Assembly: GCF_009914755.1 (NCBI RefSeq) | Contig: NC_060934.1 | Source: the human T2T-CHM13v2.0 reference genome, Homo sapiens | DNA: 64,000 bases | Strand: one strand, 5' to 3' | Shown here: positions 56,518 to 64,000 of the stretch, piece by piece | How positions within the stretch are numbered: the stretch's first letter is position 1 | Layout: each line of letters begins with the position of its first letter | The notes under the pieces: model-generated | Told to the model about the DNA's origin: nothing | Seen by the model: only the letters and a program-made list of their open reading frames with translations | The model's database searches: none | Translations under genes and position numbers: made by a program

Positions 56518-56856
<339 letters not shown>

Positions 56857-58959
56857 CCAGGTTCCTCTTGTAAAGAAACTTATGAAGTAGATGAAACAAA
56901 CATTTAGACAATTAACTACTCACTACAAAGCTGAGGGAGATAAGTGGGGACAAAATGTGTCACTGAAATCACAAGGAGCAAAGGCCCAACTTGGGAGAAT
57001 CAGCAAAGACTTTAAAGAGAGCAACAGATATTCAAGGGGCCACCTGTGGCACTTGTGGCCACACTGGCATTCATAAATGATGACAGAGCAAAGGCCCGTC
57101 ATGAACTAGTCTAAGCTTTCAACTTCTCTACAACCCTGCTAGCTTTGCTAAATCTCTCAGCTGTCATTCCTCAACTCCCAACTCTGCTACTAACCTCAAA
57201 GGAAACCATCATCAACACAGTTCTTCTCTGGTACATTGCATATCAGAAGAATGTAAATGGCAGAGAAGGATAAGAATCCCCACATACAGAAGATTCTCAC
57301 ACATCAGAGGTGTTTAATTCATAATCAACTGGCTAAGAAGCAAAGCTCTCTGGAGTCCTGGGCAACATGTAATGACAGTGGCAATGGATAATGGCTATTC
57401 GTTTTTAGCCTTTTCTCCAACTCCCCATCTACTATACAGAGCATCCAGGCAAATATAGCAGAAAAAAAGACCAGCCACTCCCTAGCATAGCAGGCAGAAA
57501 CTAACACACAGGAAAAGGCACCAAATTGAATGGGCAGCCATGTAGTTGCAAGAGAGAGACTGCCAAGGTTTTAGGACCAAGAGCTGTTTTCTGGGCTTTG
57601 GTCTCATGCTGCATAGGTCAGAAGATTCTGTTGATGGCTAGTCAGGAAAAATAAAACCTGACTGCAAAACTAGAAAAGACAATACATACATCATTTCTTC
57701 ATATCCTCTTTTGCAAACAGTATTGAACTATCACCAGGTGCCAGGGAATCTTAAAAATTCAGTGTTTTCACTTAATATGAGAACATTAATTCTACTTACT
57801 AAAGATAATATTAGAGATAAGGTGGGTTAAAAAGTCCAAATATCACAAAGAGGAGGTCTCAGCAGGTTCTTTCAAACCTCCTCTCTTACCAAGTTAAATA
57901 CTGGTACAGATATCCACAAAGATCATAAGCATATTGAACACCCTGCAGTCAGAGTACTCCATCTATGTATATATTGTATTATGTACACATCAAAAAGGCC
58001 TGGTGATAGGGAATGCCCAGTGAGTTGGGGCTTTCTCTTATTCCTTGCCTCAAGAAGGCCTCCTGGCTGACTCCATTTTTCCTTCACATCACTGCCCACC
58101 CTCTGCAATCTTCAACATCAAATCCAGTTTTGCATTGACCTTGGGCATCCAAAGAAAAGGCGGTTGTCTCCCTATAGCAGCTGAGCAGCTCCCACAAAAG
58201 CACGCAGATTTTCACTTAGGCCCATCTCACAGCCATAAAATATCTACACTGGCAGTAGATAGAGTAAAAACAACTGGGAGTCACAAGTAAAAGCCTGCTA
58301 CAAATACTATTATCAAGAGAAATATCTATAAACAATTTCTCCTTTCCCAGGAAATGGTCCATAACAGTTTACCAATTTCTTTAGGATGGCTCTTTTACTA
58401 TAAATAATCCTGTGTCAAAACAATTATCTTTACTCTGAGGTCACCAAGCTGCCATTTTCTGTAATGGCAATATTCTCTCAGCACTGTAGATAAGAGACAT
58501 GGCTAAACTCCCCCCAACCCCCCAAAATCTGGGCTGTAGTTCAACAATTTCTTCTAACTCTACTTCCCACTTTAGGCCTTCCAACCAAAACAGAATTCAC
58601 CGGAAACACCCAAAATCACTCTTGAAAACAACTTTATGATATCTTCACCTGCTAAAACACCTTCTGATACTTCAAGGTCAAGCAAACCCAGATGACAACA
58701 GAAATCAGAGGATTTTTTAAAATCAGGAAGAATCTTTCGAACATATTTCCCTTTTGATCTTGAAAAATTTAAAGTCAAAGTAAACAAAGTAGAAAAAGAT
58801 CCCTTCAAGAATAACAAGGTCAATGTGAGGCGGAAATCCAATCAATGATTTACTAAAAGGTAAATTGCACATGGTACTAGGAAGTGTTCTGGACTAGGAG
58901 ACAGAAGGTCTAGATTCGGGTACAAGTCCTAACATTTAGTAGCTATGTGATAATAACAG

Positions 58960-59185
58960 CTAATAGCTAACATTTGTTGAGATTTACTATGCACCAGACA
59001 CTGTTCTAAGTGCCTTGTGGACATTAACTCATTTCATCTTCACACACACCCTATGTGGTAAGCCCTATTTTGAATTCTGCTTTATATTTAAGGAAATTAC
59101 ACAGAGTGATTAAGCGACTTGTTCAAGATCACCCAGTAAGTGGTGGAACCATGAACTTGAATATTAACATTTCTGAATCCTGGCT
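58960..59185 (-). mobile_element. MIR
   Basis: TAATAGCTAACATTTGTTGAG...CACTGTTCTAAGTGC...TTAAGCGACTTGTTCAAGATCAC. Confidence 0.7.
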
Positions 59186-59414
59186 CTCTTCTCTGTCAAA
59201 TGAAGAAACCAAATATTTGTCCCAATTACCTTACAGAGATGTAGGTTGTAAGATAACGTATAAAAAGGTGTTTCATAAACTAGGAAGTCATGTGAGTATT
59301 GATTTTTCTTTTACTGCATTTTCAATTATTTCTGTAATAGATAAAATTAAAGTTGAGTTTTTGCATATGGTCTCATTACAAACATTAGAATTCAAATTAA
59401 TAATATGCACTTTC

Positions 59415-60689
59415 AGCCGGCAGAGCCGCCTGGCAGCTCCTCCTCTTCTCCGCCCCGGCGGCCGCGGGCGCGGGGGACGTCAGCGCTGCCAGTGTGGAAA
59501 GAGCTGCGGGGCGCGGGAGGAGGAAGTAGAGCCCGGGACCGCCGGGCCACCACCGACCGCCTCAGCCATGGACGCGTCCCTGGAGAAGGGAGTCTCGGTC
59601 TCTTGCCCAGGCGGGAGTGCAGTGAGGCGATCTCGGATCCCTGCAACCTCCGCCTCCCGGATTCAAGTGATTCTCCTGCCTCAGCCTCCCGAGCAGCTGT
59701 GACTACAGGCGTGTGACACCACACGCGACTAATTTTTGTATTCCCAGTAGAGATGGGGTTTCACCACGTTGGTCAGGATGGTCTCAAACACCTGACCTTG
59801 TGATCCTTCAGCCTCAGCCTCCCACAGTGCTGGGATTACAGGCGTAAGCCACTGCACCTGGCCGGGACTTAGATTTATATTCCCTGAAGTAATACAGGGC
59901 CTTAGATGGAATGAACGATTTATATTGGTGCTAATTGGGCGGAAAAGAAAAAGCATTGCTGTAATATGAATGTTGATGACTTTATGTTCTGAAAAATAGT
60001 CTGGGTCAAAGTGAAACATTTAATTGTGTTCATTATTCCTGTTTCTTTGAGGAATAGACTATCCTGCGTTAAATTCTACATTGTTAATATAAACTCAAGA
60101 GCTATGTGAGCAGTTGTAAATGATCCCATTTAAACTGATTGTTGCGTAATTTATACTGATTACAGAAACCACAATGTTATTTGATGCTCACCCTCTAAAA
60201 TTTAAAATAATATCTCTCACTTTAAAATGTATGTGAAAAAACAAAAAAAAATTTAGTATGCGATCATCATTTAGTAGAATCACTCAGTGATTTGGATTTG
60301 GTCCAAATATAATTCTGTCCCTTGCTTTTTCTGTTATGTAAACGTGCAGACCTGTGATAACAGAGCCATTTTCTCGTCACGATTTGCTTTTCTTCCACAA
60401 CAGTATCAGTTTTCTTGTATCTGAGATCAGTGATGTCCCAATAAATCAGATGGGTTAATTGAGGAGGCAAAGGAAATTCAAACTTAGGAGAGTAGGAGTA
60501 GGGGCTTTGCCTCTGCCCCCCACTGTATGTCCAAGGCATAAGGAACAAGGCCCTGTAGCAGAGTCTCACAGTGTGTACTTATGTTAATATTCAATAAGGA
60601 AAATGCCACAGGAAGTAATCACTATAATGATGAAGATTTTAAGTTATTAAACACACCTTCCAGTAAAAAAAAAAAATAATAATAATAAT
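59415..60689 (+). pseudogene. Processed retrocopy of a short PDXDC1-family transcript: GC-rich 5'UTR + MDASLEK exon, antisense Alu, unique 3' sequence, poly(A)
   Basis: 16-17 nt TSD (T)AATAATATGCACTTTC at 59399-59414 and 60690-60705; ATTAAA at 60646-60651 followed 13 nt later by A12(TAA)n; ATG GAC GCG TCC CTG GAG AAG at 59568-59588 matches the recalled PDXDC1 N-terminus MDASLEKIADP. Confidence 0.82.
59589..59863 (-). mobile_element. Alu carried inside the retrocopy, lacking its poly(A) end
   Basis: Antisense Alu sequence starts at GGAGTCTC immediately after ...GAGAAG, with no T-tract and no TSD of its own. Confidence 0.9.
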
Positions 60690-61433
60690 AATAATATGCA
60701 CTTTCTATTTTGCATTTGCAAGCATTTGGTGAATAAAGAGAAGTAACCTAGATACTGAAGAAAAGCCCTAATTAAAGTTACTTGAATGACAGGCTGAATA
60801 TTACTGCAAACAAACAATAAAGTGACTGAATATCTGCTTTCATATATGATTAGCCATTTCCCCCACAAGAATGTCAGATGTAGTATTATTTTCTGATTTT
60901 AATATATTTTAAAGTAAAAACCAATTATGCCTATAAACAGAGCTTCTCTATTAGTTTGAAAGGTATTAAAAAAAAAAAACTTGGCCAAAAAATTATCAAC
61001 TTCCTCTGCTCTCTCTTGCCCTCGGACCCAGTAACAGATAATATGATTATAAAACTCTTCCAGTTTCAGAAATGGTAACCTGAGGAGTATGTGGGGGCTT
61101 CAGTGATGTGGCAAGCTATGAGAGGCCCTCAGCTCCAAGCCAGTCTATGAAAGCAGACAGGGCTCTGGAGGGAACAGGAACAGTTCCTAGTCACTGTCAC
61201 CAACACAACCCTGAGTTACAGGTAGAATGGATGGCCGAAAATTCCTTGCTTTCCCACTGATGCCAAACAGGTTGGGGAAGAAGGGTAGAACACTGAGGGA
61301 TTTTTTTCAACAATCCTAAATTGATCAATGCAATTTTCTGGGAGAAAAAGGAACACCAAGGTTTGGGAAGGAACTTAATTAGGATAATTCCATTTCATTG
61401 GCCAGGTGTGTGAAGTGTAAATTTAATTAAAAT

Positions 61434-63057: not shown

Positions 63058-64000
<943 letters not shown>

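What the first reader, a model, noticed from the sequence alone, without database searches (positions are those of the whole stretch)
59399..60705. Retrotransposed fossil of a short, Alu-exonised, intronically polyadenylated PDXDC1-like transcript
Seen: a 16-17 nt TSD (59399-59414 / 60690-60705) flanks ~1.27 kb made of a GC-rich leader, ATG-MDASLEK, an abrupt join to an antisense Alu lacking its T-tract, ~800 nt of AT-rich unique sequence, ATTAAA and a poly(A) tail. This is the signature of L1-mediated retrotransposition. Recalled: MDASLEK is the PDXDC1 N-terminus, and antisense Alus commonly supply 3' splice sites just after their T-tract. Inference: the template was not full-length mRNA but an isoform splicing exon 1 into an intron-1 Alu and ending at an intronic poly(A) site. 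It would encode a 44-aa peptide (59568-59702, still open here) and must have been expressed in germline or early embryo. PDXDC1 lies in chromosome 16 segmental duplications, so the donor could be a paralog such as PDXDC2P.
Basis: partly seen in the sequence, partly recalled or inferred. Interest (0 to 1): 0.8.

Follow-up and report, generated by a model that had tools for sequence, protein, structure and literature searches.

The report
Retrocopy of a short PDXDC1 transcript
This stretch in a CPEB3 intron is a processed pseudogene copied by LINE-1 from a short, Alu-spliced, early-terminated PDXDC1 transcript on chromosome 16; it is a tidy but ordinary kind of genomic fossil.

Summary
Window 59415-60688 is flanked by an exact 16-17 nt target-site duplication (2 hits in the window, 0 expected). 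It ends in ATTAAA, then 13 nt, then A12(TAA)4.

In the same assembly it matches only two chr16 loci. In both, the two halves lie about 2.08 kb apart.
- The missing piece starts with GT directly after ...GAGAAG (MDASLEK).
- It ends with AG directly after the 21-25 nt T-tract of an antisense Alu.

So a spliced two-exon RNA was copied, ending at an intronic poly(A) site.

Locus A (chr16:14.976 Mb) is PDXDC1:
- A Pyridoxal_deC-like exon lies 41 kb downstream.
- The chr1-derived retrocopy that PMC4122923 places in PDXDC1 intron 1 lies 11 kb past the poly(A) site.

Donor paralog and age are only loosely resolved. The three branches carry 11, 7 and 10 changes, and two Alu sites favour PDXDC1. I could not test whether the isoform is expressed today or whether other primates carry the insertion.

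In passing: the insertion junction supplies the splice acceptor of the predicted lncRNA LOC107984254.

This is a new member of a known kind, of modest interest.

The parts
59398..59414 (+). 5' target-site duplication (17 nt exact; the biological TSD is probably the 16 nt at 59399-59414)
   Evidence: Homology to chr16 stops at 59414/59415.
59415..59588 (+). Copy of PDXDC1-family exon 1: 153-nt 5' UTR plus ATG and 7 codons (MDASLEK). GC 0.75, 21 CpG.
   Evidence: 95% and 97% to the two chr16 loci.
59568..59702 (+). 44-aa ORF plus stop: 7 residues from exon 1 and 37 from the antisense Alu. It has one missense change (W to G) relative to both sources.
59589..59863 (+). Antisense Alu without its T-tract; this is the start of the terminal exon
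   Evidence: minus-strand Metazoa_SRP-like hits at 59584-59729 and 59748-59862; acceptor context.
59864..60664 (+). Unique AT-rich sequence from PDXDC1 intron 1; this is the rest of the terminal exon
   Evidence: 99% to both chr16 loci.
60646..60651 (+). ATTAAA poly(A) signal; its 3' end lies 13-18 nt upstream of the cleavage point
60665..60688 (+). Poly(A) tail remnant, A12 then (TAA)4. The source has only A5 followed by CCTG, so the tail is not templated.
60689..60705 (+). 3' target-site duplication
59292..59416 (+). Intron of the predicted lncRNA LOC107984254. The donor GTGAGT is at 59292. The acceptor AG (59415-59416) is the first two bases of the retrocopy, preceded by the TSD's CACTTTC.
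   Evidence: Hub gene table (exons 56544-59291 and 59417-59940) read against the sequence.

Best explanation
Window 59415-60688 is an L1-mediated processed retrocopy, inserted on the + strand inside an intron of CPEB3 and antisense to it.

The template was a roughly 1.26-kb two-exon polyadenylated RNA from the PDXDC1 locus on chr16.
- Exon 1 ran from a start 153 nt upstream of the ATG to the normal donor after MDASLEK.
- It was spliced GT-AG to a cryptic acceptor just after the T-tract of an antisense Alu in intron 1. A C/T-to-G change had turned the usual GAGAC/GAGAT into GAGAG, creating that AG.
- The resulting 1081-nt terminal exon ended at an intronic ATTAAA site. The downstream U-rich element of that site comes from the T-tract of the next antisense Alu.

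L1 ORF2p then nicked the chr10 target at a TATT/AA-like site on the bottom strand and reverse-transcribed the RNA, giving a 16-nt TSD.

Shown here: the source loci, the precise intron loss, the untemplated tail, the TSD, and the identity of locus A.

Inferred:
- Germline expression of the isoform.
- The donor was the PDXDC1 copy rather than the 16q paralog (about 55%).
- The insertion happened at about the time of the PDXDC1/16q duplication, very roughly 4-12 Myr ago.

The copy is most likely a non-functional pseudogene whose 5' junction happens to act as a splice acceptor for a local lncRNA model.
For: Genome-wide, the two halves hit only the window itself and two chr16 loci, collinear and on the same strand (3 of 3 matches; 3 long matches plus one 41-nt chr5 match).

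BLAST splits the insert into two blocks. 59414-59589 aligns to L008 1500-1675, and 59583-60669 aligns to L008 3745-4831.

Junction: the sources read GAGAAG|GTCCGT (A) or GAGAAG|GTGCGT (B), then T21 (A) or T25 (B) followed by GAGAG|GGAGTCTCGG. The window reads GAGAAG|GGAGTCTCGG. The intron is 2075 nt in A and 2079 nt in B.

Direction of copying: chr16 has the whole Alu with its T-tract, while the window copy has it cut exactly at the AG.

Tail: the sources read CCAGTAAAAACCTG..., and the window reads CCAGT followed by A12(TAA)4 and the TSD.

TSD: 2 hits in the window, 0 expected.

The 5' end falls on an A preceded by C in both sources, which is initiator-like.

Identity of locus A:
- Same-strand Pyridoxal_deC exon hits lie 41 kb downstream in both paralogs (E 0.17 and 0.115 genome-wide).
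- That exon alone scores E 4.2e-5 against Pfam.
- A 1-kb CpG island at chr16:14990472-14991471 is 98% identical to chr1:11469623-11470520 and absent from locus B. This fits the 'retro-KIAA2013 in intron 1 of PDXDC1' of PMC4122923 (passages read).

Acceptor: 0 of 22 other window Alus read GAGAG at that position, and 14 of 22 read GAGAC or GAGAT.
Against: No expression data could be consulted, so the exon 1-Alu isoform is attested only by this fossil.

The literature searches found no report of it. The one human PDXDC1 intronic poly(A) event found in print uses AAUACA rather than ATTAAA (PMC8559711), so it is probably a different site.

The donor is not settled. Raw identity of the exon 1 part is higher to locus B (6 vs 8 differences). 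The three-way tree is star-like, with 11 R-only, 7 A-only and 10 B-only substitutions plus 2 indels.

The names PDXDC2P and KIAA2013, as attached to these coordinates, and the L1 endonuclease consensus are recalled and do not come from any call.
Confidence: 0.95

Rival explanations
1. Same mechanism, but the donor RNA came from the 16q paralog (locus B, chr16:75.87 Mb, presumably PDXDC2P) and not from PDXDC1.
For: The exon 1 part is 97% identical to B and 95% to A (6 vs 8 differences). B has the same acceptor, a longer T-tract (25 vs 21), and a donor with G at the +3 position, GTGCGT, where A has C.
Against: Over all 1255 sites the window copy differs from A at 18 substitutions and from B at 21. 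With 29 window Alus as an outgroup, two sites (59640, 59767) show R and A sharing a derived base while B keeps the Alu-ancestral base. No site groups R with B. That is 2 to 0, which is weak, and 59767 could instead be CpG decay in B.
Confidence: 0.25
2. Same mechanism, but the retrocopy predates the PDXDC1/16q segmental duplication, so the donor was the single ancestral gene.
For: Branch lengths are nearly equal (R 11, A 7, B 10). A-B divergence over 7 kb (98.3% identity) is about the same as R-A and R-B.
Against: The two R+A shared-derived Alu sites would then need reversion or gene conversion in B.
Confidence: 0.2
3. The join at 59588/59589 is not a splice. It would be either an L1 reverse-transcriptase template switch between two RNAs, or a deletion during or after retrotransposition of unspliced pre-mRNA.
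For: Template-switch chimeras are known (recalled). A 1-nt ambiguity (G) exists at the junction.
Against: Both halves come from the same gene, in order and on the same strand. The missing piece starts exactly with GT at the exon 1 donor and ends exactly with AG behind a 21-25 nt pyrimidine tract. A chance breakpoint pair is very unlikely to do that.
Confidence: 0.02
4. A DNA-level (segmental) duplication from chr16 to chr10 with an internal deletion.
For: The region belongs to a chr16 segmental duplication family (two chr16 copies).
Against: Homology begins at a start-site-like position and ends at a cleavage site 13-18 nt past ATTAAA, followed by an untemplated A-tail. A 16-17 nt TSD flanks it, and no promoter or downstream sequence was copied.
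Confidence: 0.01

Closest known systems
[quoted passage not shown] 2006 PNAS). I saw this only as an entry in the reference list of PMC5470649; the paper itself is not held, so its content is recalled.
   Same: An L1-made retrocopy records a non-canonical splice and poly(A) form of its parent gene.
   Different: Here the recorded form is extreme. Only 7 parental codons remain, the second exon is an Alu-initiated terminal exon, and no copy of the canonical mRNA was found (an internal-exon probe hit only the 2 chr16 loci).
Alu exonisation through the antisense Alu 3' splice site just behind the T-tract (Sorek 2002; Lev-Maor 2003; both recalled, not read here)
   Same: Antisense orientation, the T-tract used as polypyrimidine tract, and an AG within the GAGAC(A/G)G region made usable by a point change.
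   Different: Classical Alu exons are internal cassette exons that also use an Alu-borne 5' splice site. Here no downstream donor is used, and the exon runs on for 806 nt to an intronic poly(A) site, making it a terminal exon.
Intronic polyadenylation isoforms of PDXDC1 (PMC8559711, human, passages read; PMC11541570, mouse, passage read)
   Same: Truncated PDXDC1 transcripts ending inside introns are documented.
   Different: The published human event uses an AAUACA signal. The site fossilised here uses ATTAAA in intron 1. It is probably a different event, though figures and supplements were not seen.
Intronic retrocopies carrying the parent's 5' CpG island: retro-KIAA2013 in PDXDC1 intron 1 and PPP1R26P1 in RB1 intron 2 (PMC4122923; abstract and passages read)
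   Same: A retrocopy whose 5' end derives from the CpG-island first exon of the parent sits in an intron of an unrelated host gene.
   Different: The CpG-rich part here is only 174 nt with 21 CpG. Methylation state and any effect on CPEB3 are unknown. CPEB3 does not occur in the paper's main text or in the 4 of 5 supplement files that could be searched.

Membership tests
L1-mediated processed pseudogene / retrocopy | Intron(s) of the parent gene precisely absent at GT-AG boundaries | tested here: met
   2075 nt (A) or 2079 nt (B) intron removed: AAG|GT...AG|GGAGTC.
L1-mediated processed pseudogene / retrocopy | Untemplated 3' poly(A) tail just downstream of a poly(A) signal | tested here: met
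   ATTAAA at 60646-60651, A12(TAA)4 at 60665-60688. The source has A5 then CCTG.
L1-mediated processed pseudogene / retrocopy | Target-site duplication of about 7-20 nt at the exact limits of homology | tested here: met
   16-17 nt exact; 2 hits in the window, 0 expected. Homology ends at the TSD.
L1-mediated processed pseudogene / retrocopy | L1 endonuclease-type target (bottom strand TTTT/AA-like; consensus recalled) | tested here: met
   The pre-insertion top strand reads ...AAATT|AATAATATGC..., giving TATT/AA on the bottom strand, one mismatch from the recalled consensus.
L1-mediated processed pseudogene / retrocopy | Located away from the parent, without the parent's promoter or flanks | tested here: met
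   chr10 versus chr16. Upstream source sequence is not copied.
Alu exonisation (antisense Alu 3' splice site) | Alu antisense to the transcript, with the acceptor AG directly behind its T-tract | tested here: met
   Minus-strand 7SL-like hits. T21/T25 then GAGAG|G in the sources. GAGAG occurs in 0 of 22 other window Alus.
Alu exonisation (antisense Alu 3' splice site) | Exon closed by an Alu-internal 5' splice site (internal cassette exon) | tested here: not met
   The copied exon runs through the whole Alu and 806 nt beyond to a poly(A) site. It is a terminal exon.
Intronic-polyadenylation isoform of PDXDC1 | The source locus is PDXDC1, and the Alu exon and poly(A) site lie in its intron 1 | tested here: met
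   A Pyridoxal_deC exon lies 41 kb downstream on the same strand. A chr1-derived retrocopy CpG island lies 11 kb past the poly(A) site, matching the Fig. 4 legend of PMC4122923, 'Intron 1 of the PDXDC1 gene containing ... retro-KIAA2013'. The gene's coordinates and the position of exon 2 are recalled or unseen.
Intronic-polyadenylation isoform of PDXDC1 | The isoform is observed as RNA (junction reads, 3'-end reads, annotation) | not testable with these tools
   No transcript annotation for chr16 and no expression data are available here. Literature searches found no report.

The most novel reading that the evidence does not exclude
The fossil records a real PDXDC1 micro-isoform that is still produced in germ cells. 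It would have exon 1 joined to an Alu terminal exon, should escape NMD because its stop codon lies in the last exon, and would code for a 44-aa peptide that is mostly Alu-derived. In addition, the chr10 copy has been exapted: the insertion junction itself (TSD pyrimidines plus the retrocopy's first AG) created the splice acceptor of a bona fide lncRNA antisense to CPEB3.
Probability: 0.3. Interest if true: 0.4.

Novelty: new member of a known kind. Interest (0 to 1): 0.3.

Why it matters
It is a clean worked example of a retrocopy acting as a record of a rare transcript. It shows that PDXDC1 exon 1 could be spliced to an intron-1 Alu and terminated at an intronic ATTAAA site in the germ line several million years ago.

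It gives exact coordinates for finding that isoform in long-read and 3'-end data: the junction chr16:14976274^14978350 and cleavage near chr16:14979427-14979431 (CHM13).

It marks a stretch that the RefSeq table for this window lists only as part of a predicted lncRNA and not as a pseudogene.

It also warns that reads from the PDXDC1 short isoform and from the chr10 copy (about 1.4% apart) can be cross-assigned.

None of this changes current understanding of retrotransposition, Alu exonisation or intronic polyadenylation.

Tried and rejected
- A Pfam PF00282 scan of the genome at E <= 0.01 gave 38 matches, none on chr16. Only at E <= 10 did the two chr16 exons appear, and I then confirmed one of them alone.
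- Literature searches:
  - 'PDXDC1' + 'retrocopy' returned 1 paper, about a different retrocopy that lies inside PDXDC1.
  - 'LOC107984254' returned 0 papers.
  - 'MDASLEK' returned 0 papers.
  - 'PDXDC1' + 'intronic polyadenylation' returned 2 papers, both on other sites or species.
  - 'PDXDC1' + 'Alu' + 'exonization' returned 2 papers, neither relevant.
- 'CPEB3' was absent from the 4 searchable supplement files of PMC4122923. File 1 could not be searched and may hold the list of 104 CpG islands.
- Shemesh 2006 (PMC1360558) is not held.
- An Rfam gathering scan of the whole window found 0 families, so no CPEB3 ribozyme or other curated RNA lies in this window.
- Donor assignment from raw identity was rejected as uninformative. 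A three-taxon comparison without an outgroup gives only branch lengths. Only the Alu part could be polarised.

Full report
**Observation.**
- An exact direct repeat TAATAATATGCACTTTC sits at 59398-59414 and 60689-60705. As a 17-mer with up to one mismatch it occurs twice in the 64-kb window, and in none of 100 dinucleotide-preserving shuffles.
- Between the copies lies a 174-nt leader (GC 0.75, 21 CpG) with an ATG at 59568 reading MDASLEK.
- At 59589-59863 lies an Alu in antisense orientation. Two minus-strand Metazoa_SRP-like hits cover it (E 1.1e-8 and 2.2e-5, both below the gathering score, as expected for Alu arms). 30 window hits of 255 nt or more, the self-hit included, match it, leaving 29 other Alu copies.
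- Next come 801 nt of GC 0.35 sequence, ATTAAA at 60646-60651, A12 at 60665-60676 and (TAA)4 at 60677-60688.

**Source.** The window's own assembly can be searched.
- The leader (59415-59588) matches only itself and two places: chr16:14976101-14976274 (+, 95%) and chr16:75875601-75875774 (-, 97%) (3 of 3 matches).
- The unique 3' part (59864-60664) matches itself, chr16:14978625-14979426 (+, 99%), chr16:75872444-75873245 (-, 99%), and a 41-nt chr5 stretch.
- I fetched both chr16 loci: L008 is locus A, and L009 reverse-complemented is locus B.
- BLAST splits the insert into two collinear blocks against each locus: 59414-59589 and 59583-60669.

**Junction.**
- The sources read ...CTGGAGAAG|GTCCGT (A) or ...CTGGAGAAG|GTGCGT (B) at the end of the first block.
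- They read T21 (A) or T25 (B) followed by GAGAG|GGAGTCTCGG at the start of the second block.
- The window reads CTGGAGAAG|GGAGTCTCGG.
- The piece missing from the window is 2075 nt in A and 2079 nt in B, and only the GT...AG placement is canonical.
- chr16 holds the complete Alu with its T-tract, while the window holds it cut exactly behind the AG. So the direction of copying is chr16 to chr10 through a spliced RNA.
- Among 22 other window Alus whose T-tract end could be lined up, 14 read GAGAC or GAGAT at this position and none reads GAGAG. A C/T-to-G change in the chr16 Alu therefore made the acceptor AG.

**3' end.**
- The sources read ...ATTAAACACACCTTCCAGTAAAAACCTGTTATATTATTATTATTTTTGAGACAGG....
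- The window reads ...CCAGT followed by A12(TAA)4 and the TSD.
- The tail is therefore untemplated and begins 13-18 nt past the hexamer.
- The U-rich sequence just downstream in the sources is the T-tract of another antisense Alu.

**5' end.** Homology stops at 59414/59415. The first copied base is an A preceded by C in both sources. That pattern is initiator-like and suggests a full-length 5' end; this is an inference.

**Target site.** The pre-insertion top strand reads AAATT|AATAATATGC. This gives TATT/AA on the bottom strand, close to the L1 endonuclease preference (consensus recalled). A 16-nt biological TSD is therefore more likely than 17 nt.

**Which gene.** The hub table covers only chr10, so I tested the identity of locus A in two ways.
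- Pfam domain test:
  - A genome-wide scan with Pfam PF00282 (Pyridoxal_deC) found nothing on chr16 at E <= 0.01 (0 of 38 matches).
  - At E <= 10 it listed chr16:15017159-15017278 (+, E 0.17) and chr16:75834057-75834176 (-, E 0.115). Each lies about 41 kb downstream of the respective exon 1, on the same strand.
  - That exon, translated alone, hits PF00282 at E 4.2e-5 with 22.9 bits. This is below the 27-bit cut-off, as expected for a 34-residue fragment.
- Retrocopy landmark test:
  - PMC4122923 states that intron 1 of PDXDC1 contains a CpG island belonging to a retrocopy of KIAA2013 from chromosome 1 (passages and the Fig. 4 legend read).
  - A 1-kb CpG island lies at chr16:14990472-14991471, 11 kb beyond the poly(A) site.
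  - It is 98% identical over 898 nt to chr1:11469623-11470520 and is missing from locus B.
- Conclusion: locus A is PDXDC1, and the Alu exon and poly(A) site lie in its intron 1.
- Limits: locus B being PDXDC2P, and chr1:11.47 Mb being KIAA2013, rest on recalled map positions.
- Related check: a probe from the internal decarboxylase exon hits only the two chr16 loci (2 of 2 matches). No retrocopy of the canonical mRNA carrying that exon is present in this assembly.

**Donor and age.**
- A three-way alignment used the window copy and the two in-silico spliced sources (1255 comparable sites). It gives 11 substitutions private to the window copy, 7 private to A, 10 private to B, none three-way, and 2 indels.
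- By segment and including indel columns, R-A / R-B / A-B differences are 8/6/4 in exon 1, 4/8/6 in the Alu and 7/9/8 in the unique part.
- A and B are 98.3% identical over 6.35 kb. The three lineages thus radiate from nearly one point.
- Only the Alu part can be polarised. With 29 window Alus as outgroup, sites 59640 and 59767 show the window copy and A sharing a derived base while B keeps the majority Alu base (28 of 29 and 27 of 29). No site groups the window copy with B, or A with B.
- This 2:0 count leans towards PDXDC1 as donor shortly after the duplication. It is weak, because 59767 could be CpG decay in B.
- The private branch of the window copy is 11/1255 = 0.88% (Poisson 95% range 0.44-1.57%). 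Without the four CpG transitions it is 7/1255 = 0.56% (0.22-1.15%).
- Set against a recalled human-lineage divergence of about 0.6% since the chimpanzee split, this suggests very roughly 4-12 Myr. Whether the insertion is human-specific or shared with African apes cannot be decided here.
- The leader keeps 21 of the sources' 23 CpGs.

**Coding potential.** The 44-aa ORF (7 PDXDC1 residues plus 37 Alu-encoded) is open in the window copy and in both spliced sources. The window copy has one W-to-G change, and B has one P-to-T change. With so few substitutions, openness says nothing about selection. In the parent transcript the stop would lie in the last exon, so the RNA should escape NMD (inference).

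**Rivals.**
- A template-switch chimera or a deletion would not be expected to break exactly at a GT and at an AG behind a 21-25 nt pyrimidine tract in the same gene.
- A DNA duplication would not end in an untemplated tail 13-18 nt past ATTAAA with a TSD.
- The live alternatives concern only the donor: the 16q paralog, or the pre-duplication gene.

**Literature.**
- No paper held in the library mentions this retrocopy or LOC107984254.
- Intronic polyadenylation of PDXDC1 is reported in human cancers with an AAUACA signal (PMC8559711, passages) and in mouse (PMC11541570, one legend). These are probably other sites, but their figures and supplements were not seen.
- The general idea that processed pseudogenes record alternative transcript forms is established. 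I saw Shemesh et al. 2006 only in a reference list, the paper is not held, and its content is recalled.

**Context.**
- The copy lies on the + strand within the CPEB3 gene span (gene on the - strand, per the hub table) and overlaps none of the exons listed for the window, so it is intronic and antisense to its host.
- The predicted lncRNA LOC107984254 has exon 2 starting at 59417.
- Its acceptor AG is 59415-59416, the first two copied bases. It is preceded by the TSD's CACTTTC, and the matching donor GTGAGT is at 59292.
- The model's exon 1 begins at 56544 inside an Alu T-tract, and exon 2 ends at 59940 just before an A-rich run. The ends of the model therefore look soft.

**Verdict.** This is an ordinary mechanism with an unusually informative template: a new member of a known kind, of modest interest.

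Noticed in passing
window 59292-59416, 59417-59940, 56544: The predicted lncRNA LOC107984254 splices from GTGAGT at 59292 to an AG formed by the first two bases of the retrocopy, behind the TSD's pyrimidines. So the insertion junction supplies the acceptor. The model starts inside an Alu T-tract (56544) and ends just before an A-rich run (59941 onward), which may reflect priming or coverage artefacts, or mis-assigned PDXDC1 reads.
   Followed up: partly
L012:1041-2040 (chr16:14990472-14991471): A 1-kb CpG island (GC 0.72, 96 CpG) in PDXDC1 intron 1 is 98% identical to chr1:11469623-11470520 and absent from the 16q paralog. It fits the human-specific retro-KIAA2013 of PMC4122923, so it was inserted after the chr16 duplication.
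   Followed up: partly
L008:1675-1680 vs L009 (reverse complement) 1701-1706: The exon 1 donor differs between the paralogs. It is GTCCGT at the PDXDC1 locus (C at +3, off-consensus) and GTGCGT at the 16q copy. The Alu T-tract in front of the cryptic acceptor is 21 nt versus 25 nt.
   Followed up: no
window 63058-64000: The hub table lists another processed pseudogene (SDHCP2) about 2.4 kb downstream, on the same strand and in the same CPEB3 intron. I did not examine it.
   Followed up: no
window 1-64000: No Rfam family reaches its gathering score anywhere in the window, so the known CPEB3 intronic ribozyme is not in this part of the gene.
   Followed up: yes
window 60677-60688: Between the A12 tail and the 3' TSD lie four TAA units that continue into the TSD's own TAATAATA. 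This is a small microsatellite, probably grown from the tail/TSD boundary.
   Followed up: no
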